Virus record (IMG/VR): IMGVR_UViG_3300028968_000090
Source: a virus
Taxonomy: Duplodnaviria; Heunggongvirae; Uroviricota; Caudoviricetes
Length of the DNA stretch: 12,409 nt
Reading direction: 5' to 3' (one strand)
Within the stretch, counting starts at the first letter, position 1, and each line of letters starts with the position of its first letter. The notes beneath the pieces were generated by a model. That model searched no databases. It saw only the letters and a program-made list of their open reading frames with translations, and was not told the origin of the DNA. A program made the position numbers and the translations under genes. This document shows, in pieces, positions 1 through 12,409 of this stretch.

Positions 1-116
1 CTTCGTGTAACTATCGTGGCGGTAACGCCCACGAAGAAATACTATTGCGCTGTGCGCAGAAGAGTAATCACCTAACCAATCATACTGATTGCTTATGTGT
101 AACTCTCTACCTCTTA

Positions 117-271
117 ATTCCACTTCCTACATTTAATAACTCTCGTTATTCTCTGTAGTTGTGTAATTACTCGAAGAGAGCGGCTAAAGCTCAATTACAC
201 TCTGCTTTCCTCGTGTAATTTCACTAAGCCTCAATACAATTTCACTTCCTACATTCTGTAGTCGTGTAATT
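117..271 (+). repeat. Dispersed composite repeat pair plus clustered GTGTAATT-type motifs
   Basis: cacttcctacatt at 121..133 and 243..255; tctgtagt(t/c)gtgtaatt at 152..168 and 255..271. The first copy is split by an ~18-bp insert, the second is contiguous. GTGTAA(T/C)T recurs at 5..12, 97..104, 163..170, 213..220, 265..272 and inverted (caattacac) at 192..200. Confidence 0.6.
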
Positions 272-341
272 GTTTTCGGTGGAAAAGCCAGAGGCGACAC
301 CGAAAGAGAATTCTGATCTTATTAATCTTATCTATCTTAGT

Positions 342-393
342 TATCTTACTTACTTATCTTACTTACTTATCTTACTTACTTATCTTACTTACT
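342..393 (+). repeat. Tandem direct repeat, 4 perfect copies of the 13-bp unit tatcttacttact, with degenerate copies on both sides
   Basis: Perfect units at 342..354, 355..367, 368..380 and 381..393. Degenerate copies at about 320..341 and 394..406. Confidence 0.85.
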
Positions 394-930
394 TTATCTA
401 CTTTATTATTAATAATAGCTTTATAAGCTCTCTGTAGCTCTCTGACGCAAGAAACAGCATTCAGGAAGGGAATCACCTTAGAAAAGTGTTCTTTGCGTCA
501 TAATGTGTTTTATGAAGGATTCAGAGGTGTTTCATAACAGAGATGTATAGAGGATACTTTAATTAATTAAAAATAAGGGGTCTAAATGCTTCTCTAACAG
601 CATTAAGCAGGGTAGAGAATGGAAACGCATTGCCTACATATATAAGCTCACTACAGGGCTTTACAGAACGTTTTATAAAGTGACTCTCTATCTTATATCT
701 ACCATTACCTTTTCATATACCTAACAAATACAAAATAAGCCCCTTAAATAAGCCTCTGGCGAGCTAAACAACCTCTACATAAGAGAATGTATTGCTTTTA
801 TCAAAACTTCGTTAGAACGCGTTTTAGAGCGTTTTAGACAATAATGAAGAATAGCACCACACAGGAGAGCACGAATTGCTAAGAAAAAATGTAAGTGCAT
901 GAAAAAGATCAGATTTTTTATGAAAAGGTA

Positions 931-959
931 TTGACAAATGTTTCTTTATATGTAATAAT
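931..959 (+). promoter_or_regulatory. Sigma70-like promoter candidate (early operon)
   Basis: TTGACA at 931..936, 17-bp spacer, TGT extended -10 element, AATAAT at 954..959. Lies about 110 bp upstream of the first plus-strand gene. Confidence 0.35.
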
Positions 960-1070
960 AGGTATTAGAGGGACAGAAAAACATTCTTCTCTAAATAATC
1001 AAAATCAATGCACTTTGAAGCCGTCAGGCTTGCAAGGTGTTTTTTCTTTTAACTGAATAAGGAGTTTTTT

Positions 1071-1259
1071 ATGAAATGGTTTACCCCGGAGCACGTTGTC
1101 TCGGCATTTAAAAAAGGTGAGCTTACACGCCATCAAGTAGTAATGAATCGTAATATGGCAAGGAGTCGAGGTTATCCAGAGCGAGCAGCTTGCTTCAATG
1201 AAGCACTCAAGATTATTGATGAACTAAGAAAAAATGAAAAAGAATCTGAAACAGAGTAA
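1071..1259 (+). CDS. Hypothetical small protein (62 aa)
   Basis: ORF with SD-like taaggag 8-12 nt upstream of the ATG; first gene after the promoter candidate. No recognisable domain. Confidence 0.5.
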   Translation: MKWFTPEHVVSAFKKGELTRHQVVMNRNMARSRGYPERAACFNEALKIIDELRKNEKESETE

Positions 1260-1278
1260 AGAATAGAAGGAGAAAACT

Positions 1279-1446
1279 ATGAGCGAAACTAAGAAACCAA
1301 TTCCGCGCACTTACCTACACGTTGACCCTGAAATCTTCAAGGTTTTATTTGCTGAAGCCAAGAAAAGGCAAATTATGGTCAGTGATTTGATGTTAGAAAT
1401 CATTACTGAAGCAGCAGAGAACATCAAACAAAAAAAGGGTAAGTGA
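1279..1446 (+). CDS. Small ribbon-helix-helix-like DNA-binding protein (55 aa); not in the supplied ORF track (below its length cutoff)
   Basis: ATG at 1279 preceded by aaggag; TGA at 1444..1446. Translation MSETKKPIPRTYLHVDPEIFKVLFAEAKKRQIMVSDLMLEIITEAAENIKQKKGK has a beta-strand then two helices, the pattern typical of Arc/CopG/MetJ-type RHH proteins. Confidence 0.45.
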   Translation: MSETKKPIPRTYLHVDPEIFKVLFAEAKKRQIMVSDLMLEIITEAAENIKQKKGK

Positions 1447-1497
1447 TCCTCATTCACTTTAGTAGCGCATTAAGCGTGATTTATAAGGAGATTTTTA

Positions 1498-2190
1498 ATG
1501 ATTAATCAACTAACTTTTACAAAACACTATGACACGTTTGATAATGTATCAAAGATTTATTCTGATAAATTCCCTCAAGGAAAAGATTTAGATCTATTAC
1601 ATATTGTGCTTTATTTTCGATTCCTTAGTTATCAGGAAAACAACCTTAATTGTTATGAAAGTCACGAAACATTAGCTAAGATTTTTAAGTCTTCATCGTC
1701 AACAATTAAACGTAAGATAAACGATCTTAAAGAGATGGGATTATTAGAAACATCCCCACATCCTGATCCGTATATTTCATCTTTGATTTACAATGCTCTC
1801 CCTCTCACAGATGCACATATTACTCCCCCAGGAGAATCATCACTCTCTGATCTTTCTGAGGCAGAAGAAGCACAGGAACAACCTAAAGGCCATAAACAGC
1901 CTTCTTTTGATGTTCTTGATGATGATTGGGATACGCCTTTACCGTGGGAGACGGAAGAAACACCTGTTTCATCAAGTGATAAGGTAGCTAATGATAATGA
2001 GGAGGATGTGTTAGAGAATTTTGCCTCTCTTATCATCCAGAAGAAACACACCAGAACAGGAGGGGCATCATTTATAGAATTTGCAAATTCACTAGCTTAT
2101 AGACACGGGCTAAAACGACCAAATGGTATTGAGGCATATTTTTCTAAGAATTACCCAAATGTGTATGAAGACTTTGATATTCCATTTTAA
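1498..2190 (+). CDS. Winged-HTH-like DNA-binding protein with acidic C-terminal region (230 aa); possible replication initiator or transcription regulator
   Basis: Strong RBS (aaggag). Segment LSYQENNLNCYESHETLAKIFKSSSSTIKRKINDLKEMGLLE resembles HTH domains of phage/plasmid replication or regulator proteins. Central and C-terminal part is rich in D/E. Confidence 0.55.
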   Translation: MINQLTFTKHYDTFDNVSKIYSDKFPQGKDLDLLHIVLYFRFLSYQENNLNCYESHETLAKIFKSSSSTIKRKINDLKEMGLLETSPHPDPYISSLIYNALPLTDAHITPPGESSLSDLSEAEEAQEQPKGHKQPSFDVLDDDWDTPLPWETEETPVSSSDKVANDNEEDVLENFASLIIQKKHTRTGGASFIEFANSLAYRHGLKRPNGIEAYFSKNYPNVYEDFDIPF

Positions 2191-2201
2191 TAAGGAGGGT
2201 T

Positions 2202-2480
2202 ATGATTCAATATTTAGTAAAAAATCAAGTAGACAGAATTCAGTGTAATGACACAGGAAAACGCATCTATGAAACGCTTGCTTACCTCTATAAAGGAAAG
2301 CCAACACCGCTAAAATATAGCGATGTGTTACATCGAGCAGGGTGCTCTGAAGATGGTTTAAAATTCTGGCTGAAACAGCTATCAAACTTCGGTGTTATAG
2401 AAATTAAAGAATTATCTTTCTCTACATTCAATCTCAAAAGACTAGATAAAGAAATAGAATTCATCTATTCCACTCTCTAA
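2202..2480 (+). CDS. Small winged-HTH-like protein (92 aa)
   Basis: Strong RBS (aaggaggg) 11 nt after the upstream stop. Segment KYSDVLHRAGCSEDGLKFWLKQLSNFGVIEIKE is HTH-like. Confidence 0.5.
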   Translation: MIQYLVKNQVDRIQCNDTGKRIYETLAYLYKGKPTPLKYSDVLHRAGCSEDGLKFWLKQLSNFGVIEIKELSFSTFNLKRLDKEIEFIYSTL

Positions 2481-2609
2481 AATCTCTCTATGTAATTAAA
2501 ATATAAAAGGAAAACATTATTATGATAGTAGCTATGTATTGGTTATTGTTCTTTCTCACGTTAGAAGCATATTTCGGGGTGTTTTCCTTTAAAAGAAAAG
2601 GAAAAATAA

Positions 2610-3020
2610 ATGGCAAAAAGAAAAAACAACGTTGTTAAGAAAATCGGTGATTCAGCTTCTCTTCTAAGTAAACCTAAATCTATTCTAAGACGTAAAGACT
2701 TTAAAGAGCTAGTTACGCTCACCAAGCAAAATAGCGCCCCTGGCGAATGGAAAACAGAGATCATAGAACATTCTCCCTCTGTGCCTTGCGGAGATGAATT
2801 TAACGCCTTACAAGAAATCTTATCTTCAACACCTGGCGTGTTCTGGAAACCTAGAAAAAGAAAAGAGTATATTGTTGATAGCTCTGATCTACGCAAATAC
2901 CAGATTTTAGGATTTGAAGATTATAATCACTACGTTGGTTATCTCGCCACCAATGGCCTAAATAACTTAGTCCCAGAATTCCAAATTCTATGTAATGCTG
3001 ATCACTATGGAGACTTTTAA
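2610..3020 (+). CDS. Hypothetical protein with basic N-terminus (136 aa)
   Basis: ORF with A-rich RBS region; lysine/arginine-rich N-terminal 35 residues. No recognisable domain. Confidence 0.5.
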   Translation: MAKRKNNVVKKIGDSASLLSKPKSILRRKDFKELVTLTKQNSAPGEWKTEIIEHSPSVPCGDEFNALQEILSSTPGVFWKPRKRKEYIVDSSDLRKYQILGFEDYNHYVGYLATNGLNNLVPEFQILCNADHYGDF

Positions 3021-3021
3021 T

Positions 3022-3360
3022 ATGAACAAAAACACGTATGACACAATTTACTCACTAATTAATTATTATGAGGATGATTACCTCCTGCCTTTAAACCGCG
3101 CTGAACTTGAAGCATACAAAGAAAACACGCCAGCGGCACTAAATGAGGCGTTTAAACACTGGGATTTAGCTGTGAATGCCTTCTCGCACCTCTCTAAGCG
3201 TGTAGAGATGCTCTGTAAGCGTGAGAACGCATATCTAACAGCGGACCAGGTATGGGAGCTATCAAACTGGATAGAAGGTCTTGAATCGGACGTTCGCTAT
3301 GTAGGAGACGGCCTTGTTGAACTAGCTCAACGCTTAGGCGCTACTATCACAGAAGAATAA
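3022..3360 (+). CDS. Hypothetical helical protein (112 aa from ATG 3022; the ORF is open from 2995)
   Basis: ORF 2995..3360 in the track. The ATG at 3022 has a ggag SD 9 nt upstream and is preferred over 2995 and 3007, which lack an SD. The stop/start overlap with the upstream gene suggests coupling. Confidence 0.45.
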   Translation: MNKNTYDTIYSLINYYEDDYLLPLNRAELEAYKENTPAALNEAFKHWDLAVNAFSHLSKRVEMLCKRENAYLTADQVWELSNWIEGLESDVRYVGDGLVELAQRLGATITEE

Positions 3361-3389
3361 AAAAAGCAACAAAAAAGTTGTAAAATATC

Positions 3390-3418
3390 TTGACATTTCA
3401 TCTATTGTATGTTAATAT
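3390..3418 (+). promoter_or_regulatory. Sigma70-like promoter candidate (late/structural operon), same architecture as the promoter at 931
   Basis: TTGACA at 3390..3395, 17-bp spacer, TGT, TAATAT at 3413..3418. Sits directly after the stop of the 3022..3360 gene. Confidence 0.4.
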
Positions 3419-3611
3419 AATTATATAGGGTGATTATTTTTCCTTTATTGGTTCGATATTAAAAATTCTTCTTGTCGTTAAAGGGGAGTAAAATCTCCGC
3501 TCCCCGCTTCTCCTCCTCCTTAAGTGTCATTATTACCTCTTTTTTCCTTTGTTATGCATACATCTTGGAGTATGCATAACATAGGGTAATTACATAGGTA
3601 CAAGTTAATAA

Positions 3612-3641
3612 AAGGCGGCTCTAAATGCTGCCTTTTATTTT
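3612..3641 (+). terminator. Intrinsic-terminator-like hairpin inside the leader of the late operon
   Basis: aaggcggc (3612..3619), 7-nt loop, gctgcctt (3627..3634): 8 pairs including one G-U, followed by ttttatttt. Lies about 60 nt upstream of the ATG at 3704. Confidence 0.4.
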
Positions 3642-3703
3642 GCCCGTTATGCAACTTAAAAGTTGTATTTCTTACTTTAAACAAGGTAACAAGGTTTATA
3701 TAA

Positions 3704-3916
3704 ATGTTGTTCTTAAATGATAAAGAGCAAATCATCAAATATAAAGATGAAATGCTGAAAATTAATCCACAAATTACCGAAATGGTAGCTAAATACGCTG
3801 GGTGTTCTGTCGAGGAAGTAGAAAGATGTGTTGAAAAATATTTTTCTCCTTCTTCTCCGTCTACACCTTCCCTTAATGAATTAATCAAATTAAAAGCTAA
3901 GGAGATTACTAAATGA
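3704..3916 (+). CDS. Hypothetical small protein (70 aa)
   Basis: ORF whose stop overlaps the next start (ATGA at 3913..3916), indicating translational coupling. Confidence 0.5.
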   Translation: MLFLNDKEQIIKYKDEMLKINPQITEMVAKYAGCSVEEVERCVEKYFSPSSPSTPSLNELIKLKAKEITK

Positions 3917-4275
3917 TTATTGATTTAGACACTCTATTTCCAGTTCGAAAGACTTTCACAGATATTGTAAGTTATTGTACTGATCCGTTTGCCTCTGTAG
4001 AAAGCAAGGTTTTTGCTTCTCTTCCTGCTGATGTTGAGTGTGGCGACTTGATCACAAGCACGGGCGCTAAATATGAATCAGGAGATGATATCTATGTTGT
4101 TATGAGTGAATTTTTAACGGCTGGAGAAAACAAGCCTGTAGATGTGCTACGTAGCAATGCTGGCCTTGTCTGCATCAAAGCTGATGCCCTGAATGCTGTA
4201 AGTGAAGCAGCAAAAACAGCATTAATTAAAAAAGGCTTCCAGCTTGAAGGCTTTAATACGGTTTTCACTTCTTAA
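3913..4275 (+). CDS. Hypothetical protein (120 aa); by position possibly a head decoration/scaffold-type partner of the downstream capsid-like gene
   Basis: Strong RBS (aaggag). Sits immediately upstream of the 342-aa gene. No sequence-level recognition of a decoration protein; the functional guess is positional only. Confidence 0.45.
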   Translation: MIIDLDTLFPVRKTFTDIVSYCTDPFASVESKVFASLPADVECGDLITSTGAKYESGDDIYVVMSEFLTAGENKPVDVLRSNAGLVCIKADALNAVSEAAKTALIKKGFQLEGFNTVFTS

Positions 4276-4293
4276 TAAAAGGAATAATAATAA

Positions 4294-5322
4294 ATGATTC
4301 TAGGTAATGATTACGTTGATTTAGCTCCGCTTTTCCAGGCTCATAGCACTAGAAACTATCTGCTCTCTACTCTTGATTTTACGGATTCTGTAGGGGTTAC
4401 ATCTCATAAAGTAGCTGTTTCCCAGCTTGTCGAAAGCAACGAATCTCTGTTCAACAAAGAAACCTCTCGTTTCTCTTCTGAACACAACGTTACTAAGCGA
4501 GAACAAGGTAAAGAATGGCTGATTGAAATCCCTTACTTCCTGCGTGAAGATGTGATCCGTCCTTCTGATGTTCAAGGCAAACGTAAACCTGGCACTGATT
4601 TTCAGGAAACACTCACTGATATTTATGCTGACTATGTTGCTAAACACCACGTAGCGTATCAGCGCACTAAAGAAAGCGTATTGGCTGCATCTCTGTTTAG
4701 CGGTAAAACTTACACGCCTAAAACTGATGATGTGTTAATTGAGTGGGGCAAGCTGTTTAACGTATCAGCTATGAAAGCCACTGTGAACGCTTCCAGCACT
4801 GACACCACGAAGATTTTTAAAGAATTTGATCAGATTGCTACTGACATTATCGAGAAAGCACAAAGCCAGGCGGCTGCTGTAGAGCGTATTGTTGTTTTCT
4901 GTAAGCCGGAAGCCTTCTCTGCAATTCGATTCTCTGCTGGTATGGCAAACGCATTCCAGTATGTAAGCCCACTGGAAGAGGGAAATGTTGTGTACCAGCG
5001 TCGTGACCTGCTACCAGGAGTGACAGCGTTCACTATTCCAGGAACTAACATTGATGTTATTAAACTGGTAGATCCGCTACATCTTGCACATATGACCGCA
5101 GACGCTGTAGCTGTGCCTAAATTCGCTAAAGGCTCTAACGTATATCAGAACATCTACGGGGCTGCTTCCAGCACCTTTGAACTGATCAATGCCGATCCTA
5201 CTGAGGTTTATAGCTACAGCTATGAATCTTCTCGTGGTGATGCTGTTAACGTTGTTACAGAGAATAGCCAGATGGTTGTAAACCACGGTGTAGGCTTCTC
5301 CGTTCAAATCACTGTTAAATAA
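4294..5322 (+). CDS. Putative phage major capsid protein (342 aa), tentatively lambda gpE-like
   Basis: Good RBS; the only gene in the element closed by a strong intrinsic terminator. Size and a few motifs (LAASLFSGKTYT, ERIVVFCKPEAFSAIRF) resemble my recollection of lambda E-type capsid proteins. The function is unverified. Confidence 0.4.
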   Translation: MILGNDYVDLAPLFQAHSTRNYLLSTLDFTDSVGVTSHKVAVSQLVESNESLFNKETSRFSSEHNVTKREQGKEWLIEIPYFLREDVIRPSDVQGKRKPGTDFQETLTDIYADYVAKHHVAYQRTKESVLAASLFSGKTYTPKTDDVLIEWGKLFNVSAMKATVNASSTDTTKIFKEFDQIATDIIEKAQSQAAAVERIVVFCKPEAFSAIRFSAGMANAFQYVSPLEEGNVVYQRRDLLPGVTAFTIPGTNIDVIKLVDPLHLAHMTADAVAVPKFAKGSNVYQNIYGAASSTFELINADPTEVYSYSYESSRGDAVNVVTENSQMVVNHGVGFSVQITVK

Positions 5323-5340
5323 TATTTAACGTGTAATAGA

Positions 5341-5374
5341 GGCGTGGCGTGTATTCACGCTTCGCCTTTTTTTT
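5341..5374 (+). terminator. Rho-independent terminator after the 342-aa gene
   Basis: ggcgtggcgtg (5341..5351), loop tatt, cacgcttcgcc (5356..5366), then 8 T at 5367..5374. Confidence 0.75.
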
Positions 5375-5408
5375 ATTTATTTTTTAAATTTTGAGAGGTG
5401 ATTAAAAT

Positions 5409-5612
5409 ATGGAAGTGATTCTGAAATCAAAAAATGGTGTACACGTACATTTAGATGCTAATGATTCTAGAGGCTTGTTAAATCTGAAATATCTATGTTC
5501 TCTCTTAGATGTTCCATATGAAGGAGTAAAAGCCCGTATGTTCAGATTAAACGAGAGCATTGATCAGGCTCTACACCATTTCTTAAGCAAAGAAGGTGAT
5601 AAAAATGATTAA
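5409..5612 (+). CDS. Hypothetical small protein (67 aa)
   Basis: ORF with gagagg RBS; stop lies 14 nt before the next gene's start. Confidence 0.45.
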   Translation: MEVILKSKNGVHVHLDANDSRGLLNLKYLCSLLDVPYEGVKARMFRLNESIDQALHHFLSKEGDKND

Positions 5613-5626
5613 TAAGGGGATTTTAA

Positions 5627-7477
5627 ATGTTAGAAATTAACACTTCTAAAATTAAGAACACAGTAACATTTAGTGTAGATAAAGACAGCTTGAAAAAAGC
5701 GAAAGACTCTATTACAGGCTTAAAGGGATTCGTAGAAAATATCAAGCCAGCTAAGTTAAGGTTTGATAATGTCACTAAAGGCTATAAGAAAGCACAAAGT
5801 GAAGTAGATAAGATTGCTCAACAGAAAGCTAAAACAGAAAAACAAAATCAAAGAGCACAAGCTGCCGCAGCAAGAGCACAGGCAAGGCAACAGCAACAAA
5901 TAGCAGCACGTAAAGAGAAAGCAGAATTAAAACTGTTAGACGTTGGATCAAGCATTAGTGCAATGCACCGTCTCTCTGTAGCGGAACAATATAAAGCTAT
6001 TGCACAGGCTAGAGAGATAGCAAAACAATATGAGCAAGGCGCTATCTCGCTTGCACGTATGAATAGCCAAATGAAACGCCTACAACAGCAACAACGTAAG
6101 ATTAATGGCAACAGAAAAGCTCAATTAGCCCCCGTTAAGGGAGGATCAGGGAATTCCGCCACTATGGGCGCTCTGTTATTTGGAGGCGCTACAGCGGCGG
6201 CTGGCGTGATGGCTGTAAGCAAAGCCTCTGATTTTGTTACTAGCAGCTTCGCTAACGCAGACACCCAAGGGGAGCTAATTCAACGGGCCAAGCTGGGCGG
6301 TGTAGACGTTAACCAGATGTATAATATTACAGAATGGGCGTATAAAAACGGCGTTGACTCTATGATGGGTGATCAAGGGGCTAGGAAATACCTGGATCAG
6401 ATGAAAGATGTTAGGGAACGTGCCGCAAAATCCTACAGTGAAGCTGAATTGGTGAAAGATAAGCAAACCGGAAAATCTAAATGGAAAGGCGGTGATAACG
6501 CTATTAATGAACTTCTAAACATCGGAGTTATTAACAAAAGCGACCTTAAAAAATTTGCTGATAATCCAGCCGGATTAATTTCTAAGGCTGTTAATGGAAT
6601 GATGAAAAAAGGGTTTTCAGACTCCCAAATTGGACAACGTTTAGAAGACCTGGGCGATGATTTGATGCTTACATCAAAATATTGGCAACGTTCCGTTAAA
6701 GATGTACAAGAAAGTATTAACCAGCAAAAAGCCTCTGGAAAATGGCTAACAGAAACACAGCAAGACTCTATTGTTAAGTTCAGAGAACTAAACAGACAGC
6801 TTTCACAGCTTTCTGATGCAAGACAAGTAGCATTCGTAGACGGCTTTATGAAATCTCTTGATCCAAAAGTAACGGAAGAGTTTATGAAAAACCTTTCTAA
6901 TCTCACTCCGTATTTTACAAAACTGGGAGAAGCCACGGGAAGTCTCTTTGAAGCTATTATGAAGATTGTAAACTGGTTTAATCGTAATGATGATAAGACA
7001 GATGCTATTCAGAAAAATATGGGTGATGCACCGCCATTAAGCAATGATGGGATGAAGAAGAATTTAGATAATCTCACTCCTGATCAATATAAAGGCGCTG
7101 GCACTGCAACAACTACACCTGATAATAGTCATTCTCTCTTTAACACGATTAAGGGATGGCTTTTCGATGATAATGCTTCTTCTGTGTCAGATGTAAAAAT
7201 GTCAGTCAGCGAAGCACCGATAACCAATCTCAAACAGGGTGCTTTAAATAATCTTGCAATGACAACTCCGGCTTATAATTTATCTCCTGTATTCAATCTG
7301 AATCCTACATTTGAAGTGGTAACAGAGGTTCCTCTTACTATTAATTCTGACACATCAAGATTAAGCGATTATGTGGATTTTACAGCAAGAGCAAGTCGGG
7401 ATAGCTTCTTGAAATCATTAACATTAACCAGCTTATCAGGACAATCCAACGGCGGGNNNNNNNNNNTCCCGCCATAA
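5627..7477 (+). CDS. Large coiled-coil protein with a Gly/Ala-rich hydrophobic segment (about 616 aa); tape-measure-, scaffold- or ejection-protein-like. C-terminus uncertain because of the N gap
   Basis: RBS aagggg. Q/A/K/R-rich predicted coiled coil at about residues 60-165; hydrophobic GALLFGGATAAAGVMAVSKA segment. The ORF crosses the 10 N at 7457..7466, so the reading frame beyond the gap is not established. Confidence 0.55.
   Translation: MLEINTSKIKNTVTFSVDKDSLKKAKDSITGLKGFVENIKPAKLRFDNVTKGYKKAQSEVDKIAQQKAKTEKQNQRAQAAAARAQARQQQQIAARKEKAELKLLDVGSSISAMHRLSVAEQYKAIAQAREIAKQYEQGAISLARMNSQMKRLQQQQRKINGNRKAQLAPVKGGSGNSATMGALLFGGATAAAGVMAVSKASDFVTSSFANADTQGELIQRAKLGGVDVNQMYNITEWAYKNGVDSMMGDQGARKYLDQMKDVRERAAKSYSEAELVKDKQTGKSKWKGGDNAINELLNIGVINKSDLKKFADNPAGLISKAVNGMMKKGFSDSQIGQRLEDLGDDLMLTSKYWQRSVKDVQESINQQKASGKWLTETQQDSIVKFRELNRQLSQLSDARQVAFVDGFMKSLDPKVTEEFMKNLSNLTPYFTKLGEATGSLFEAIMKIVNWFNRNDDKTDAIQKNMGDAPPLSNDGMKKNLDNLTPDQYKGAGTATTTPDNSHSLFNTIKGWLFDDNASSVSDVKMSVSEAPITNLKQGALNNLAMTTPAYNLSPVFNLNPTFEVVTEVPLTINSDTSRLSDYVDFTARASRDSFLKSLTLTSLSGQSNGGXXXXPP
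7457..7466. other. Assembly gap or masked bases (10 N)
   Basis: Run of n characters flanked by an inverted repeat, ggcggg on the left and tcccgcc on the right. Confidence 0.95.
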
Positions 7478-7498
7478 CATTACAAGGAAATTATTATT

Positions 7499-8212
7499 AT
7501 GGCGACCGCCGGGATTTTAACCATACGTGCAGCAAATACTCCAGAACAACACGTTCAGGCTGTTTACAAAGCAGAACAAGATATAAACTCTACAAAAAAC
7601 GAAAATAGCAAAGCTAATAAAACAAAAGGAGAGAACGGATTTGCTATTGTTACCAGTGGCTTGGCATCTTCTGGCAATGACGTTTATGAAAATTATATGG
7701 CACTGGCCTTTGACAGTGTAGACGATGTGAACGTGAGACGTTCGGCAGATGTCACAAGCTACCCCGTAGAAAATGGTGCTACTGTGTCTGATCACGTTCA
7801 AATTAAAAACAATAAATTTTCTCTTAAAGGGCGTATCTCTGAAACACCGATTAAAAGCGATCCTGGCTTGTTAAAGAGTGCAGGGGTGAACGGGAACAGA
7901 AGATCATTAGCTATCGACTACCTGAATCAGATTATGGACAGTAGACAGCCTTTTCTTCTTGTTACAGAAAATAAAACTTTTGAGAACGTTGTTTTAACAG
8001 GCATCGAATACACAGAAGAGGCAAGCGAATCCCTGGTATTTGATCTTAGCTTTGAGCAAATAAGATTAGTTTCTTATGGCACTGTAAACACTGTAGCTAT
8101 CAAAACACAGCCATCTAAGAACATCGGGGCTAATATGAAAAAACGTGTTAACACTGAAAAACCAAGTAGTGAAGGTGAAGACACTATTACTCCTGCCTTT
8201 AAGCAGGAATAG
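7499..8212 (+). CDS. Hypothetical protein (237 aa), last plus-strand gene before the integrase
   Basis: ORF with aagga RBS. No recognisable domain. Confidence 0.5.
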   Translation: MATAGILTIRAANTPEQHVQAVYKAEQDINSTKNENSKANKTKGENGFAIVTSGLASSGNDVYENYMALAFDSVDDVNVRRSADVTSYPVENGATVSDHVQIKNNKFSLKGRISETPIKSDPGLLKSAGVNGNRRSLAIDYLNQIMDSRQPFLLVTENKTFENVVLTGIEYTEEASESLVFDLSFEQIRLVSYGTVNTVAIKTQPSKNIGANMKKRVNTEKPSSEGEDTITPAFKQE

Positions 8213-8252
8213 CCGTAAACGCCTCTAAAACGCTCTGTAACGATGTAATTAT

Positions 8253-8286
8253 AAAAGAGGCTACCAATCTATGTTGAAGCCTCTTT
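8253..8286 (-). terminator. Possible terminator hairpin between convergent genes (downstream of the integrase on the minus strand)
   Basis: 9-bp stem aaagaggct / agcctcttt with a 15-nt loop. On the minus strand the stem is followed by a U-rich tract (ttttataatt). The integrase stop is 8 nt away. Confidence 0.3.
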
Positions 8287-8293
8287 ATTGCGT

Positions 8294-9628
8294 CTATGGC
8301 GTTGTTTTACGCCTTAAATTTGATTTTTTATTGATTGATAAGCCTTTCTCTATTTCAGGGTAGCGTAGAAGCTCAATATAGTTTTTAAGCTCTACTGGAG
8401 AAGCTGCATTCTTGCTATATGTGCGGAATGTCTCTGTATTACCGCGTGTATGGCCCAGGAGAAGGGCGATCCTGTCTTCTGGAATTTGATTTCGATCAAG
8501 AAGCTGTGCTACTCCGTGTCTCAGAGAATGAAACACCTTCCTTTCTGTTCCCTTTTCCCCTAAAGCCTTTCGTTTAGCTCTTGTAAATCTCTGCGTGTGC
8601 CACGTGGAACGTTTACCATCAGCACGTTCTGTGATGCTGGCGTGATAGAACAAAAAGCCATTGTGAGGCTTTTCACGAAGAGATAACACCAACGGAGTGA
8701 TAAGGCTATGCACAGGCACAACACGTGCCGCAGCTTTCGTTTTTCCCTGTGTGATTTCAAAACACAGCACACCTTCGATCTCTTTCACATCGTCTATTGT
8801 GAGACTTGCTATCTCATTGATCCGCATACCTGTATAAGCACCGATAAGACACAAAGCCATCATTTCTTTGTTTTCTGCTGAATTACCGGAAAATACTTGC
8901 AACACTTGCAATAGCTCTTTGTTAGAAAATGCCTCATAGCTCTCTCTACTTTGTGCCACATCAAGCCTATGCCCTCGCCAGGGGGAGAGCGCCCTTTCTG
9001 GCGCATCGTGGTAACGTGATGAAGCTAACTCCCATAGCTGGGCCATTGGGCTGATATAATTTGCAATTGATTGTTGTGAAAGGGTTTTTTGCATGTGTTC
9101 AATCCAGCCTGTAACAGTGGTGCGGCTCACATCTTGCAATGCAATATCAGGCTTTTTACGGTAGGAGAGAAACATCTCTACCGCTTTTCTTGCCTTAGCT
9201 AAAGTGGCTGGCTTCTTCTTCGTGCTGTTAATTGTCAGGTAGATTTCAAGAATTTTAAGCAATGACGGACACGAAGACGCTGTATCTTGCATTCTGGTAG
9301 CTGTTTTGGCGTATTTAGCCTTACTGCGTAACAGTTCCAGCGTGTTCTCTATTGTGCTGTTTACAGGGGCGACACTCTCCCGTAGACAATGGTATTCATC
9401 TGCAATCTGATCACGCTTTCTACGTGCAACACGAAGATTACTTGTATGTAGACTCCTGACAAACGTCCTTTTTCCTTCAAAAAAGGGCTGCATATACACA
9501 GGCAACGTGATCCTCAAATAGTAGTTACCGTAAGAATCACAGATTATGTATTGGTTAGGCTTGTATCTCATAAAATCTCCGGCTAAAGTGTCGGAGCGTT
9601 TGTAATGTGAAAATTGATTGTAACGCAT
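8294..9628 (-). CDS. int: Tyrosine-type site-specific integrase (phage integrase family)
   Basis: C-terminal catalytic signature: TGMRINE (Arg box), HSLRH, LLGH and a downstream Tyr (RTYSK). Sits beside the tRNA-derived attachment core. The internal ATG at 9571 has a ggag SD and may be the true start (425 aa instead of 444 aa). Confidence 0.85.
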   Translation of the reverse strand: MRYNQFSHYKRSDTLAGDFMRYKPNQYIICDSYGNYYLRITLPVYMQPFFEGKRTFVRSLHTSNLRVARRKRDQIADEYHCLRESVAPVNSTIENTLELLRSKAKYAKTATRMQDTASSCPSLLKILEIYLTINSTKKKPATLAKARKAVEMFLSYRKKPDIALQDVSRTTVTGWIEHMQKTLSQQSIANYISPMAQLWELASSRYHDAPERALSPWRGHRLDVAQSRESYEAFSNKELLQVLQVFSGNSAENKEMMALCLIGAYTGMRINEIASLTIDDVKEIEGVLCFEITQGKTKAAARVVPVHSLITPLVLSLREKPHNGFLFYHASITERADGKRSTWHTQRFTRAKRKALGEKGTERKVFHSLRHGVAQLLDRNQIPEDRIALLLGHTRGNTETFRTYSKNAASPVELKNYIELLRYPEIEKGLSINKKSNLRRKTTP

Positions 9629-9671
9629 AGAAAATGATAATTTTTTCTATAAGATTCAATCAATTAGTAAT

Positions 9672-9733
9672 GGTCGTAGGTGATGGCATTAACACGAGAT
9701 TAATCGAGTGTTTTACTCCTATTATCGGCACCA
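9672..9733 (+). other. tRNA-Thr-derived attachment site: 3'-end fragment of a thrW-like tRNA (pseudo-tRNA, ptwF-like)
   Basis: actcctattatcggcacca at 9715..9733 matches the 3' T-arm/acceptor/CCA end of enterobacterial tRNA-Thr(CGU) as I recall it. ggtcgtaggt at 9672..9681 matches the preceding tRNA segment but is separated from the rest by a 33-nt non-tRNA insert. There is no intact tRNA. Confidence 0.55.
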
Positions 9734-9859
9734 TTAAAATCAAAGAGTTACCCCATATTTAAATACACCACGTTTCCTCCTGTGCCGCATTTGTGCCATT
9801 GTAACCTTGGCAATTCATCAAAATACTGTTCTGACATCAGGCAGTGCAGGTGCAGCTAT

Positions 9860-10270
9860 TTAAACCAATTGCTGCCGCCATTCTTTGACGTAGTCAATCA
9901 GGGCGCGGAGCTTTGGTGCAATATTGCGACGCTGTGGGAAATACAGATAGAAGCCCGGAAATTGTGGAAGAAAGTCATCAAGCAGCGATACAAGCTTACC
10001 GCTTTCAATATATGGCCTGAAAGTTTCCTGAGTGGCAATTGTTATTCCTCCGCCGGCAAGAGCCAGCCTCACCATCAGACGCAGATCATTAGTCGTAATC
10101 TGCGGTTCAATCGCAAGGTCGAAAGTTCTCCCGTTTTCTTCAAATGGCCAGCGATAAGGCGCAACCTCCGGGGACTGACGCCAGCCGATACACTTATGGG
10201 TATTTCCCCCGGAGGCGAGAAAGCGCTCTCCACGCCCGGCCGCAAGGATCAGGACGACGGGGGCAGGCAT
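9860..10270 (-). CDS. yagP: Truncated LysR-family regulator remnant: substrate-binding domain only, no N-terminal HTH (136 aa)
   Basis: C-terminal LysR-like sequence (FPQRRNIAPKLRALIDYVKEWRQ). Its start overlaps the stop of the upstream XdhC-family gene, so there is no room for the HTH domain. Matches the 136-aa yagP remnant downstream of paoD in E. coli, from memory. Confidence 0.55.
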   Translation of the reverse strand: MPAPVVLILAAGRGERFLASGGNTHKCIGWRQSPEVAPYRWPFEENGRTFDLAIEPQITTNDLRLMVRLALAGGGITIATQETFRPYIESGKLVSLLDDFLPQFPGFYLYFPQRRNIAPKLRALIDYVKEWRQQLV

Positions 10271-11205
10271 GAATCCTCCTCATGATGGAGACGTACAGAG
10301 GCGATTTCTGCCAGCACGGAGAGTGCCAGAGTATGCGCATCCCGGGCTTTGGGGAATATCCCGACGGGGGCCCGGATTTGCGCTGTCTCCTCCCTGGACC
10401 ATCCCAGCTCGTGGAGCTTTTGCAGACGTAACGTGTGGGTTCGATGGCTGCCCAATGCGCCGAGATAAAAGGGTTTTGCTTCTCGCGCGGCCTGCAATGC
10501 TGGCAGCTCCCGGTTGAGATCATGGCACAGCAAAATGACCGCCGTGTCGGTATCGATCTGAGCGCTGGCTGAGGCCGGAAAAAGATCGAAGATATGGCTG
10601 TCATAGCCTGTGGCTGCTGCAAGACTCGCGGTTGCCTGCGCCTCAAGAGAACGTCCGTAAATCATCAGCCTGACGCATGGCCTGAACCCCACCTCAAAGC
10701 CATTGAGATTCCAGCCCGTTCGGGTTTGCGTGGGCAGGCACACCAACGATTGTGCTTGCGGATCGTAGCGCAGCCCCGCCGGTTTTCTCTGTTCCAGACG
10801 GTTCAGCACGGCGAGCAGAGGCTGTGCCGAGCGTAGTTTATGGAGCGTCAGCGTGATCCCACCGCCGCAGGGCAGAACGATGTCAAACCACGGCGAACCT
10901 TCGCCATAGCGAATTTCGCGATCGCGGCCTGAGCCCATCATCTCCAGCGCTTCAAAAGCGGCAGCGGCCTCCACGCAGCCGCCAGAGACAAAACCGCAGT
11001 AACGACCATCTTCGCGAACCACCATCTGCGCCCCGAGCGGGCGCGCCGCGCCGCCGTGTATCTCCACCAGCGTCACCAGCACCGCTCCTTTACCGGACAT
11101 TAGCGCCTCTACGGCGAAGCGCAGAATGGTCCGGTGGTCATCGGTGAGAAACGCCTGCTCTGGCTTATGCCAGTGTTCGTCTTTATCAAAAAGCGGGTAT
11201 GACAT
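10249..11205 (-). CDS. paoD: XdhC/CoxI-family molybdenum cofactor insertion/maturation factor (318 aa)
   Basis: N-terminal XdhC signature (GAARPLGAQMVV...GFVSGGCVE) and a C-terminal Rossmann-like domain. Sits directly downstream of the Mo-binding aldehyde oxidoreductase subunit gene, as in paoABCD. Confidence 0.8.
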   Translation of the reverse strand: MSYPLFDKDEHWHKPEQAFLTDDHRTILRFAVEALMSGKGAVLVTLVEIHGGAARPLGAQMVVREDGRYCGFVSGGCVEAAAAFEALEMMGSGRDREIRYGEGSPWFDIVLPCGGGITLTLHKLRSAQPLLAVLNRLEQRKPAGLRYDPQAQSLVCLPTQTRTGWNLNGFEVGFRPCVRLMIYGRSLEAQATASLAAATGYDSHIFDLFPASASAQIDTDTAVILLCHDLNRELPALQAAREAKPFYLGALGSHRTHTLRLQKLHELGWSREETAQIRAPVGIFPKARDAHTLALSVLAEIASVRLHHEEDSCLPPSS

Positions 11206-11214
11206 TGTTTCTCC

Positions 11215-12409
11215 TTAAACCACATCCGGCAGCTTATCGAGCAGCTTATCCAGAGTGATGGGATAATCCCGTACCCGAATACCGGTGGCGTTATACACCG
11301 CGTTGGCGATAGCCGCGCTCACGCCGCACAGGCCCAGCTCACCGACACCTTTGGCCTTCATCGGGGAGGATATGGGGTCGGTATCATCCAGGAAAATCAC
11401 CTCCTGTTTTGGGATATCCGCATGGACCGGCACCTCATACCCCGCCATATCGTGATTAACGAAGTAGCCCAAACGGTCATCCACCGCCAGCTCCTCCATC
11501 AGTGCCGCGCCCATGCCCATAGTCATTGCGCCAATGACCTGGCTGCGCGCAGTTTTCGGATTCAGGATGCGTCCTGCAGCACACACAGCGAGCATACGCC
11601 GGACCCGAACTTCTCCCGTCGCGCTATGCACGCCGACCTCCACAAAATGCCCGGCAAAGGTCGACTGCTGGTACTCTTTGCTCAGTGTTCCGAATTCAAT
11701 GCTCTCTTCCGCTGTCAGTCTGCCGCCTGCGGTGGCTTCATGTAGCGTGGCGCTTCGGGTACCGTTGGTAATCTTGCCGTCGGCAAACTGCGACTGCTCA
11801 GGATCAAACCCGACTGCCGAGGCAATCATTTCGCGAAGCTTCATACAGGCGGCGTAAACGCCGGAGGTGGAGGTATTCGCGCCCCATTGTCCACCAGAAC
11901 CCGCAGAAACCGGGAAACTGGAATCGCCGAGGTGAACCGCAACCTGCTCCAGCGGTACGCCAAGCATTTCCGCTGCCGTCTGGGCCAGAATGGTGTAGCT
12001 GCCGGTGCCAATGTCGGTCATGTCCGTTTCTACGGTAACGGTGCCGTTTTGTTCGAGGTGAACCCGAGCACCCGATTTTTCCAGCAGATTATTGCGAAAG
12101 CCCGCCGCAACACCGTGGCCGACTAGCCACTCCCCGTCGCGCACCTGTCCGGGTGTGGCGTTGCGCTGCTTCCAGCCAAATTTATCCGCTCCGGTGCGCA
12201 AGCACTCGATAAGCTGACGGCGAGAGAAGCAGCGCGTCGGGTCGGCGGGGTCAACCTGAGTGTCATTCAGGATGCGAAACTCGACGGGATCGATGCCCGC
12301 TTTTTCCGCCAGTTCGTCGATCGCGATTTCGAGCGCCATCAGACCGGGGGCTTCGCCGGGCGCACGCATGGCGTTCCCTTCCGGCAAATCAAGCGTGGCG
12401 AGCCGCAGG
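11215..12409 (-). CDS. paoC: Aldehyde oxidoreductase molybdopterin-binding subunit, 3' (C-terminal) portion; the gene continues beyond the window
   Basis: Aldehyde oxidase/xanthine dehydrogenase molybdopterin-binding C-terminal domain motifs (GVGELGLCGVSAAIANAVYNATGIRVRDYPIT). The 5' end of the gene lies beyond position 12409 (the supplied ORF begins at an internal Met at 12387). Confidence 0.8.
   Translation of the reverse strand, partial: LRLATLDLPEGNAMRAPGEAPGLMALEIAIDELAEKAGIDPVEFRILNDTQVDPADPTRCFSRRQLIECLRTGADKFGWKQRNATPGQVRDGEWLVGHGVAAGFRNNLLEKSGARVHLEQNGTVTVETDMTDIGTGSYTILAQTAAEMLGVPLEQVAVHLGDSSFPVSAGSGGQWGANTSTSGVYAACMKLREMIASAVGFDPEQSQFADGKITNGTRSATLHEATAGGRLTAEESIEFGTLSKEYQQSTFAGHFVEVGVHSATGEVRVRRMLAVCAAGRILNPKTARSQVIGAMTMGMGAALMEELAVDDRLGYFVNHDMAGYEVPVHADIPKQEVIFLDDTDPISSPMKAKGVGELGLCGVSAAIANAVYNATGIRVRDYPITLDKLLDKLPDVV

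What the first reader, a model, noticed from the sequence alone, without database searches (positions are those of the whole stretch)
117..271. Cluster of GTGTAATT-type motifs and a split composite repeat in the non-coding left region
Six or more copies of GTGTAA(T/C)T occur within about 270 bp, in both orientations. A composite repeat (cacttcctacatt plus tctgtagtNgtgtaatt) is present once contiguously and once with an ~18-bp insert. This density is typical of iterons at a replication origin, integrase arm-type sites or operator arrays. It lies upstream of an operon encoding RHH and winged-HTH proteins that could bind it.
Basis: seen in the sequence. Interest (0 to 1): 0.5.

Follow-up and report, generated by a model that had tools for sequence, protein, structure and literature searches.

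The report
Polar repeat boxes flanking island origin
The repeated GTGTAAT motifs are real and form the right half of a mirror-oriented set of short boxes that bracket the replication origin of an uncharacterised E. coli phage-satellite-like island, but they are not the binding sites of the island's own initiator protein, and what binds them is still unknown.

Summary
GTGTAAYT occurs 6 times in the window, all within 1-271 (0.71 expected; 0 of 200 shuffles reach 6). The composite repeat exists once contiguous and once split by 18 bp.

The window starts about 110 bp right of a modular replication origin, seen in the window's own element on a longer contig, L006. That origin has arrays of 15-24-bp iterons followed by an AT-rich stretch.

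- **Initiator target:** across 42 related islands the iteron type co-varies with the N-terminal winged-helix domain of the 230-aa initiator (35 of 38 typed loci). The GTGTAAT cluster stays the same under three different initiator domains.
- **Integrase:** the cluster is also unchanged between islands whose integrases are 32% identical and use different tRNA sites.
- **Promoter:** it lies 660 bp upstream of the operon promoter.

So these are not initiator iterons, arm-type sites or promoter operators.

GTGYAAT boxes are strictly polar around the origin: 230 minus to 3 plus on the left, 108 plus to 24 minus on the right. In the window they form the arms of three imperfect palindromes in a hairpin-prone segment.

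My best reading is a second, initiator-independent class of origin-flanking cis element. The binder and mechanism are unresolved.

The parts
1..115 (+). Hairpin-rich conserved segment directly right of the origin's AT-rich region. It contains the first GTGTAACT (5-12) inside the stem CTTCGTG...CACGAAG, the conserved anchor TGCGCTGTGCGCA (46-58), and the non-conserved GTGTAACT at 97-104.
   Evidence: The ssDNA folding z-score for the 120-nt window starting here is -8.0. The anchor is present in all 42 related regions. The 97-104 copy reads GTGTTAAC in most relatives.
116..168 (+). Palindromic unit P1: AATTCCAC-TTC-CTACA [18-bp palindromic insert 134-151] TGTAG-TT-GTGTAATT. The box is at 161-168 (+).
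   Evidence: Repeat families D4/D5. Predicted hairpin. The insert is present or absent in different relatives: L136 and L140 lack it.
193..220 (.). Palindromic unit P2: AATTACAC (box on the - strand, 193-200), a 12-nt spacer, then GTGTAATT (box on the + strand, 213-220). The 8-bp arms are perfect.
   Evidence: Invariant in all lineage-1 loci except the L010 deletion.
238..271 (+). Palindromic unit P3, the contiguous copy of the composite repeat: AATTTCAC-TTC-CTACA-TTC-TGTAG-TC-GTGTAATT. The box is at 264-271 (+).
   Evidence: L133 carries the 19-bp insert in this unit instead.
272..309 (+). Fourth hairpin, TTTTCGGTG...CACCGAAA, closing the hairpin-prone segment.
   Evidence: Conserved in the alignment.
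327..403 (+). G-free, CT-rich tandem array of 13-mers (CTTATCTTACTTA, about 6 copies). Its length varies between islands. Function unknown.
931..959 (+). Operon promoter (TTGACA-17-AATAAT with a TG extension), 660 bp downstream of the cluster.
1498..2190 (+). Rep-like initiator. It has a variable N-terminal winged-HTH domain, an acidic linker and a C-terminal ...YEDFDIPF tail. Its inferred targets are the E-type iterons GGGGTAGGTCAYWGTGARCTA, which lie about 190-235 bp left of window position 1 (L006 4270-4312). Its targets are not the GTGTAAT boxes.
   Evidence: PHROG replication-initiator hits and HTH_36. Covariation between domain and iteron type.

Best explanation
The cluster is the right-hand half of a bipartite set of short asymmetric boxes (consensus Y-GTG-Y-AAT). 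These boxes bracket the replication origin of a roughly 12.5-kb low-GC integrative island that resembles a phage satellite.

The origin proper consists of an array of 15-24-bp iterons recognised by the island's O-like initiator, followed by an AT-rich unwinding region. It ends about 110 bp left of window position 1.

Six to eight boxes lie on the minus strand over about 1.2 kb left of the origin. Four to six lie on the plus strand 300-440 bp to its right, and these are the finding. On both sides the motif therefore reads 5'->3' away from the origin, that is, on the lagging-strand template of a fork leaving it.

I infer that the boxes are a second, initiator-independent class of origin-accessory cis element. 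They would be recognised by a factor common to all islands of the family, encoded by the island, the host or the helper phage. That factor would help build or regulate the origin complex in an orientation-dependent way.

Shown here: the enrichment, the polarity, the position relative to the origin, and independence from the initiator, the integrase, the RHH alleles and the 92-aa protein.

Inferred only: that the boxes are bound at all, by what, and that they act in replication.
For: - **Enrichment.** 6 GTGTAAYT against 0.71 expected. In L006, 18 GTGYAAT against 3.65 expected, 11 of them within 1.7 kb of non-coding DNA. It is the top k-mer by unbiased tests.
- **Polarity.** In 42 distinct related regions the left side has 230(-):3(+) and the right side has 108(+):24(-). 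The 24 are the inverted arm of palindrome P2. Within L006 alone, Fisher p=0.005.
- **Recurrence in unrelated sequence.** The polarity and the distance recur in a second island lineage. Its right flank cannot be aligned to the window and carries GTGCAATA at +300 to +440 from the AT-rich centre.
- **Motif preservation.** At a homologous left-side box, ATTACAC in one lineage is ATTGCAC in the other, so the motif is kept.
- **Origin identity.** Five initiator N-domain types pair with five iteron types: A 12/12, B 2/2, C 7/7, D 6/6, E 8/11.
- **Independence from the initiator.** The window, L001 and L002 carry the same cluster with three different initiator domains.
- **Restricted location.** Box density in the island's coding part and in the candidate helper phage is at background, 0.3-0.8 per kb against 6-7 per kb.
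Against: - No binder was identified. The only well-conserved small protein (62 aa) models as a three-helix bundle with no significant match to DNA-binding folds. The RHH protein has at least three divergent alleles. The 92-aa protein is absent from L003, L135 and L139, which keep the boxes.
- In the left-side alignment the boxes are no better conserved than their flanks, and several are lost in individual lineages.
- L010 has lost three right-side boxes by recombination between the two composite units.
- The 97-104 copy is specific to a few loci.
- Spacing between boxes is irregular (32-180 bp), which is unlike known cooperative arrays.
- The related loci share ancestry, so the polarity counts are not independent events.
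Confidence: 0.42

Rival explanations
1. Single-strand hairpin signal. After the AT-rich region melts, the chain of palindromes at window 1-310 is extruded on the lagging-strand template. It then acts as a primosome-assembly or priming site (pas/ssi-like) for host PriA/DnaG or for the helper phage's T7-like primase-helicase. The GTGTAATT arms matter as stem sequence, or as a sequence read in single-stranded DNA.
For: - The segment folds far better than shuffles as ssDNA: z -4.1 for 90-320 and -8.0 for 1-117.
- The non-homologous right flank of lineage 2 is also hairpin-rich, z -4.3.
- The polymorphic 19-bp insert is itself a palindrome placed at the hairpin apex.
- The distance from the unwinding region is conserved at about 300-440 bp.
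- The motif lies on the lagging-strand template on both sides.
- The island has no helicase, loader or primase gene.
- Its initiator ends in an SSB-like ...DFDIPF tip. SSB interacts physically and functionally with PriA (abstract of PMC8246471). pas sites are hairpins that resemble replication forks (PMC5778457).
- The candidate helper encodes a T7-like primase/helicase.
Against: - The six to eight left-side boxes are isolated and that region is not structure-prone (z between -1.8 and +1.6).
- The lineage-2 boxes are not paired in stems.
- The palindromes keep a conserved mismatch in the outer arms.
- There are no compensatory changes to test, because the stems are invariant.
- No sequence signature of known pas or G-sites was checked.
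Confidence: 0.2
2. Long-range transcriptional control sites. The boxes bind a regulator, for example the RHH protein or a helper-phage protein. This regulator silences or activates the divergent transcription units on either side: the recombinase gene to the left and the structural operon to the right.
For: - On each side the boxes have the same orientation relative to the flanking transcription unit.
- RHH proteins are known, from my own knowledge of the omega repressor and PutA, to bind short asymmetric heptad-like motifs in arrays.
- The operon has a promoter followed by a leader terminator, which implies tight regulation.
Against: - The cluster is 660 bp from the promoter at 931-959, and no promoter-like site lies in it.
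- RHH alleles (A, B and a third in L005) do not co-vary with box content or promoter sequence.
- Islands lacking the recombinase gene (L004, L006) keep the left boxes.
Confidence: 0.12
3. Packaging recognition sites. The boxes are where a helper-phage small terminase or an equivalent protein binds (pac/cosB-like), so that island DNA is packaged into capsids.
For: - The island encodes capsid, tape-measure and Dit homologues but no terminase or portal, so a cis packaging signal must exist somewhere.
- The 2-3-kb non-coding region is the obvious place for it.
- Multi-copy oriented repeats are typical of pac/cosB regions (my own knowledge).
Against: - The non-coding region has no DNA similarity to any of 50,697 phage records, even at E<=1.
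- The candidate helper genome has no comparable box cluster.
- Sites spread over about 1.7 kb and centred on an origin are unlike known pac or cos sites.
Confidence: 0.1
4. One reading: the boxes are the iterons of the island's own initiator, or arm-type sites of its integrase.
For: They are short repeats near an origin, in both orientations, upstream of an initiator gene.
Against: - The initiator N-domain co-varies with different, longer iterons adjacent to the AT-rich region in 35 of 38 typed loci.
- The GTGTAAT cluster is identical under initiator domains A, B and E.
- The cluster is kilobases from both att sites and is unchanged between integrases that are 32% identical.
Confidence: 0.04
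5. No present function. The boxes are remnants of repeat expansion and gene conversion in fast-evolving non-coding DNA.
For: - Boxes are gained and lost between lineages.
- The composite unit recombines: the L010 deletion, and movement of the insert between units.
- Boxes are no more conserved than their flanks.
Against: Drift does not explain three observations: the strict polarity switch at the origin in every locus, its recurrence in a non-homologous right flank at the same distance, and tolerance of only T/C at one position.
Confidence: 0.1

Closest known systems
Lambdoid-phage O protein / ori-lambda iteron system
   Same: - The initiator has a specificity-determining N-terminal DNA-binding domain and a separate C-terminal recruitment domain.
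- Four to five dyad-symmetric iterons are followed by an AT-rich region.
- N-domain and iterons are exchanged together between relatives.
- PHROG hits include 'replication initiation O-like'.
   Different: - Here the origin lies about 1.7 kb upstream of the initiator gene, not inside it.
- No P-like loader is encoded.
- The GTGYAAT boxes have no counterpart in ori-lambda, and the initiator does not specify them.
Satellite phage P4 ori/crr type I iterons (octamer TGTTCACC; from my own knowledge)
   Same: An 8-bp motif is repeated in direct and inverted orientation in two separated clusters of a satellite's replication region.
   Different: - P4 octamers are the binding sites of its own alpha primase-helicase.
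- Here the boxes are independent of the island's initiator, and no primase-helicase is encoded.
- Strict mirror polarity about an AT-rich centre is not a described P4 feature.
E. coli oriC arrays of DnaA boxes in opposite orientation in the two halves (from my own knowledge)
   Same: Asymmetric short sites are arranged with opposite polarity on the two sides of an origin, giving an oriented nucleoprotein complex.
   Different: - The box ATTRCAC has an invariant A where the DnaA box TTWTNCACA needs T, and the base after CAC is variable.
- Spacing here is tens to hundreds of bp, not 2-3 bp.
- The boxes flank the unwinding element on both sides.
Primosome assembly / single-strand initiation signals (phiX174 pas; plasmid R1 G-site; RSF1010 ssiA/ssiB)
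   Same: - They are hairpin-forming, strand-specific elements a few hundred bp from, or within, an origin.
- They serve to load helicase or primase once the DNA is single-stranded.
- In RSF1010 there are two sites on opposite strands.
   Different: - No sequence relationship was established.
- The left-side boxes are not in hairpins.
- Function is untested.
SaPI/PICI origins (short iterons in two sets flanking an AT-rich region; from my own knowledge)
   Same: It is a satellite origin with short repeats on both sides of an AT-rich segment.
   Different: - SaPI iterons are bound by the island's own Rep helicase and vary with it.
- Here a separate long-iteron array fills that role, and the short boxes do not vary with Rep.

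Membership tests
Iterons of the element's replication initiator | The repeat sequence co-varies with the initiator's DNA-binding domain among relatives. | tested here: not met
   Five N-domain types pair with five other iteron types (35/38 loci). The GTGTAAT cluster is identical with domains A (L001), B (L002) and E (window).
Iterons of the element's replication initiator | A regularly spaced array lies directly adjacent to the AT-rich unwinding region. | tested here: not met
   The boxes start about 300 bp from the AT-rich centre and have irregular spacing of 32-92 bp. The long iterons are spaced about 22-24 bp and abut the AT-rich stretch.
Iterons of the element's replication initiator | The initiator protein binds them. 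| not testable with these tools
   This needs EMSA or footprinting with the purified 230-aa protein.
Integrase arm-type sites | They lie within the attP arms, roughly 100-200 bp from the crossover core. | tested here: not met
   attL (the tRNA end) is about 2.7-2.9 kb left of the cluster (L001 11119-11192 against 14164; L006 about 1750-1825 against 4664). The integrase and attR are more than 8 kb to the right.
Integrase arm-type sites | They co-vary with the integrase. | tested here: not met
   The thrW-type integrase of the window and the glyU-type integrase of L001 are 32% identical, yet both islands carry the same cluster.
Promoter operator array | The sites overlap or adjoin the -35/-10 region of the regulated promoter. 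| tested here: not met
   The only strong promoter is at 931-959, and none is predicted in 1-420.
Promoter operator array | They co-vary with the cognate repressor (the RHH protein). | tested here: not met
   RHH alleles A and B are distributed independently of box content and promoter type, and L005 has a third allele.
pas/ssi-type single-strand initiation signal | Stable hairpins form on one strand near an origin. | tested here: met
   ssDNA fold z -4.1 and -8.0, with 0 shuffles as stable. Lineage 2 gives -4.3.
pas/ssi-type single-strand initiation signal | It supports strand- and orientation-specific priming or helicase loading. | not testable with these tools
   This needs in-vitro ssDNA-to-dsDNA conversion assays or in-vivo primer mapping.
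DnaA boxes | A match to TTWTNCACA. | tested here: not met
   In 48 non-redundant box contexts the position equivalent to T2 is invariantly A, and the base after CAC is A in only 28 of 48. The consensus itself is recalled from memory.

The most novel reading that the evidence does not exclude
The GTGYAAT boxes are strand-specific recognition signals on the lagging-strand template. They direct a hijacked replisome component outward from the island's origin on both sides. That component would be the helper phage's T7-like primase-helicase, or a host SSB-client such as PriA, recruited through the initiator's SSB-like ...DFDIPF tail. This would be a way for a satellite with no helicase, loader or primase of its own to take over the replication machinery of a virulent phage.
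Probability: 0.15. Interest if true: 0.75.

Novelty: new variant of a known kind. Interest (0 to 1): 0.5.

Why it matters
Islands of this family are present in about 12-14% of complete E. coli genomes (660-754 of 5,426). I found no description of them in the searchable literature.

Their origin region shows an unusually clean natural experiment. Initiator DNA-binding domains and iterons have been swapped at least five ways, while a second set of polar boxes stays constant. That separates two layers of origin recognition and gives a concrete handle for finding a new origin-binding or replisome-recruiting factor.

The island has tail and capsid gene homology to phi92-like virulent phages. If that means it is their satellite, the boxes and the initiator's SSB-like tail could explain how it replicates during infection.

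If the boxes prove dispensable, the finding reduces to an ordinary repeat-rich origin flank.

Tried and rejected
- **Rfam.** A permissive scan of the whole non-coding region found only the flanking tRNA.
- **Phage DNA similarity.** blastn of the non-coding region against phage records gave nothing at E<=1e-5, and one spurious 45-bp Vibrio hit at E<=1.
- **IMG/VR pattern scan.** A scan for three spaced GTGTAAT copies returned only unrelated tandem repeats and was uninformative.
- **Other species.** A single-protein scan of representative genomes found nothing, and the Rep alignment was too divergent to use. The 62-aa alignment found only four Escherichia-type loci, so the family looks confined to Escherichia.
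- **Homologue search.** The search with the initiator listed only near-identical proteins.
- **62-aa protein.** It gives a confident three-helix model, but Foldseek against PDB has no hit below E=3.9, and the PDB sequence search found nothing meaningful.
- **K-12 CP4-6.** The right end (yagK-intF) is a different element, so K-12 data cannot be transferred.
- **Candidate helper genome PHB05.** No box cluster and no orientation bias relative to genes.
- **Recalled consensus comparisons.** I compared the box with several known sites and rejected each on specific mismatches:
  - DnaA box;
  - Tus Ter core (GTTGTAAC, one base out of register);
  - marbox (no second element);
  - GalR/LacI-family half-site (wrong pair geometry);
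  - sigma-70 -10 and extended -10 (G at the essential -11 position);
  - P1 parS box A (ATTTCAC, which occurs only as the degenerate palindrome arms).
- **Literature.** Four of the five literature searches looked for a description of the island and found none.

Full report
**1. Observation**

GTGTAAYT occurs six times in the 12,409-bp window, all in the first 271 bases: 5, 97, 161, 213 and 264 on the plus strand, and 193 on the minus strand. Shuffling gives an expectation of 0.71, and none of 200 shuffles reaches six.

The motif was not cherry-picked. AATTACAC is the commonest 8-mer of window 1-310 and ATTACAC is the commonest 7-mer of the complete intergenic region. No dinucleotide shuffle out of 500 produces any k-mer that frequent.

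The composite repeat is as described. Positions 116-133 and 152-168 are separated by 18 bp, while 238-255 and 255-271 are contiguous.

**2. What the window is**

Bases 1-9,700 have 32-46% GC and bases 9,800-12,409 have about 60% GC. The right end encodes host yagP, paoD and paoC homologues.

The low-GC part is one transcription unit:
- a promoter at 931-959, followed by an intrinsic terminator at 1010-1048;
- ORFs of 62, 55 (RHH-like), 230, 92, 136, 121, 70 and 120 aa;
- a 342-aa Phage_cap_E capsid protein, then ORFs of 67, 616 and 237 aa, the last Dit-like;
- a tyrosine integrase on the opposite strand at 8294-9628.

The first 1,100 bp match 660 of 5,426 complete E. coli genomes. In strain NGF1 the same island is a 12.5-kb insertion at tRNA-Gly. 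The window's own island, with its left flank, was recovered from a metagenome scaffold as L006, where it sits at tRNA-Thr. Window position 1 corresponds to L006 4504.

**3. The real origin lies just outside the window**

In every relative, the DNA immediately left of the window start contains an array of four to five 15-24-bp repeats, mostly dyad-symmetric. A 60-80-bp stretch of about 90% A+T follows.

The repeat sequence differs between islands: CACAGAATTCTGTTA, ACCCCTATCAA, GTAACGAnnnGTTACA, AGGAAATGAGTTCC and GGGGTAGGTCAYWGTGARCTA.

The 230-aa protein matches phage replication-initiator families, including O-like ones, through an N-terminal HTH_36 domain. Its N-terminal domain is hypervariable and falls into five types, while its C-terminal part has two types.

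N-domain type and the iteron type nearest the AT-rich region agree in 35 of 38 typed loci. The three exceptions are mosaic origins that also carry the expected iterons. Each N-domain type occurs with both C-domain types, so the pairing is not simple linkage.

This is the classic signature of an initiator and its iterons. The window's initiator (type E) should therefore bind the GGTCAYWGTGA repeats at L006 4270-4312, about 190-235 bp left of window position 1.

**4. What the GTGTAAT boxes are not**

- **Not the initiator's iterons.** The cluster at 161-271 is base-for-base the same in islands with initiator domains A, B and E.
- **Not arm-type sites.** It is the same in islands integrated at tRNA-Thr and tRNA-Gly whose integrases are 32% identical. 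It also lies 2.7 kb or more from either attachment site.
- **Not a promoter operator.** It is 660 bp from the only convincing promoter.
- **Not tracked by the small proteins.** The RHH protein exists in at least three divergent alleles that assort independently of the boxes. The 92-aa protein is missing from islands that retain the boxes.

**5. What they are**

Relaxing the motif to GTGYAAT and looking beyond the window shows that the finding is half of a larger structure. Six to eight further copies lie left of the origin over about 1.2 kb, all on the minus strand.

Across 42 distinct related regions the counts are 230 minus to 3 plus on the left of the AT-rich centre, and 108 plus to 24 minus on the right. 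All 24 minus-strand copies on the right are the inverted arm of one palindrome.

A second island lineage has a right flank that cannot be aligned to the window. It still carries one to three plus-strand GTGCAATA copies at the same distance, +300 to +440 bp.

A position-weight analysis of 48 non-redundant contexts shows no information beyond Y-GTG-Y-AAT. Elsewhere in the island, and in a candidate helper phage, the motif is at background density.

**6. Fine structure within the window**

Each composite repeat is an imperfect palindrome. The outer arms are AATTyCAC and GTGTAATT, and the inner arms are CTACA and TGTAG. The pair at 193-200 and 213-220 forms a third palindrome with perfect 8-bp arms, and a fourth hairpin follows at 272-309.

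As single-stranded DNA, 90-320 folds with z = -4.1 and 1-117 with z = -8.0. The unrelated right flank of lineage 2 is similarly structure-prone, at -4.3. The left box region is not.

The 18-19-bp insert is itself a small palindrome at the hairpin apex, and it is polymorphic:
- absent from unit 1 in L136 and L140;
- present in unit 2 in L133;
- in L010, recombination between the two units has deleted the intervening 103 bp.

**7. Mechanism**

The data place the boxes in the cis-acting origin region. They show that the boxes are oriented with respect to the origin and are independent of initiator specificity.

I therefore favour an origin-accessory element read by a factor shared by all islands (confidence about 0.4).

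The main rival (about 0.2) is that the window's palindromes act as single-strand hairpin signals for helicase or primase loading. This would fit several facts:
- the motif lies on the lagging-strand template on both sides;
- the island has no helicase, loader or primase gene;
- the initiator ends in ...YEDFDIPF, which resembles the E. coli SSB tip MDFDDDIPF;
- pas sites are fork-like hairpins (PMC5778457).

It does not explain the unstructured left-side boxes.

Transcriptional control, packaging recognition and non-function remain possible at about 0.1 each.

Weaknesses of any functional reading are that the boxes are not better conserved than their flanks in the left block and are individually dispensable in some lineages. 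No binder could be identified.

**8. Comparison with known systems**

The iteron and initiator layer behaves like the lambdoid O/ori system. The difference is that the origin lies outside the initiator gene and no loader is encoded.

The short polar boxes resemble P4 type I octamers, SaPI iterons and the oppositely oriented DnaA-box arrays of oriC in form. They fail the defining tests for initiator iterons, arm-type sites, operators and DnaA boxes (see the membership table).

I found no publication describing this island or its origin. I rate it a new variant of a known kind, namely origin-associated repeat elements.

**9. Verdict**

- The mechanism is unresolved but testable.
- Interest is 0.5.

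Noticed in passing
L006 3886-4392 (about 110-620 bp left of window position 1); also L001 13680-13890 and L142 2650-2830: This is a modular replication origin. Five interchangeable iteron types each pair with a matching N-terminal domain of the 230-aa initiator. L006 is a mosaic carrying arrays of several specificities side by side, apparently fossils of past swaps.
   Followed up: yes
window 2161-2187 (C-terminus of the 230-aa protein): The initiator ends ...NVYEDFDIPF, and the second C-domain type ends ...EIYDSIPF. An acidic linker precedes the tail. This resembles the E. coli SSB C-terminal tip ...MDFDDDIPF that recruits SSB-client proteins. The final Pro-Phe is invariant in all variants.
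   Followed up: partly
window 3913-8212: The island's Dit-like protein is 58-60% identical to a tail protein of phi92-like virulent myoviruses (Justusliebigvirus, Stephanstirmvirinae). The 616-aa protein is a homologue of their tape-measure protein (27%, N-terminus 55%). The capsid protein is a distant homologue of theirs (22%). Gene order is the same: a small protein before the capsid gene, then a small protein, tape measure and Dit. No terminase, portal or tail tube is encoded. This suggests an undescribed satellite or hijacker of virulent phi92-like phages.
   Followed up: partly
window 931-1070: A near-consensus promoter (TTGACA-17-TG-AATAAT) is followed by a strong intrinsic terminator (13-bp stem plus a U-run, 1010-1048) before the first ORF. 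The arrangement is conserved in all lineages. It implies that operon expression is controlled by antitermination or attenuation.
   Followed up: partly
window 327-403: A tandem array of 13-mers (CTTATCTTACTTA) is completely free of G on the top strand. Its copy number differs between islands. Together with 1-420 it gives a strong C-over-G skew of -0.23.
   Followed up: no
window 7457-7466: A run of ten N lies inside the tape-measure-like gene, so the window comes from a scaffolded draft assembly. The 616-aa reading frame is interrupted there only formally.
   Followed up: yes
L001 12482-13260; L005 1419-1997: Many relatives carry a small serine recombinase (Resolvase plus HTH, 179 aa), with res-like repeats (GTATTCATTTGGT twice; TTGGCA...TGCCAA) at the left edge of the non-coding region. 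One lineage has a 192-aa tyrosine recombinase in the same place. The window's own island (L006) and L004 have neither.
   Followed up: partly
window 1279-1446; L005 4544-4720: The 55-aa RHH protein has at least three divergent alleles with different beta-strand residues (RTYLHV, RTCFHI, NINFDS). The L005 copy is not annotated in RefSeq.
   Followed up: partly
window 8294-12409: The island occupies the thrW / CP4-6 site next to yagP-paoD-paoC. However, it is unrelated to the yagK-yagN genes that K-12 carries there.
   Followed up: yes
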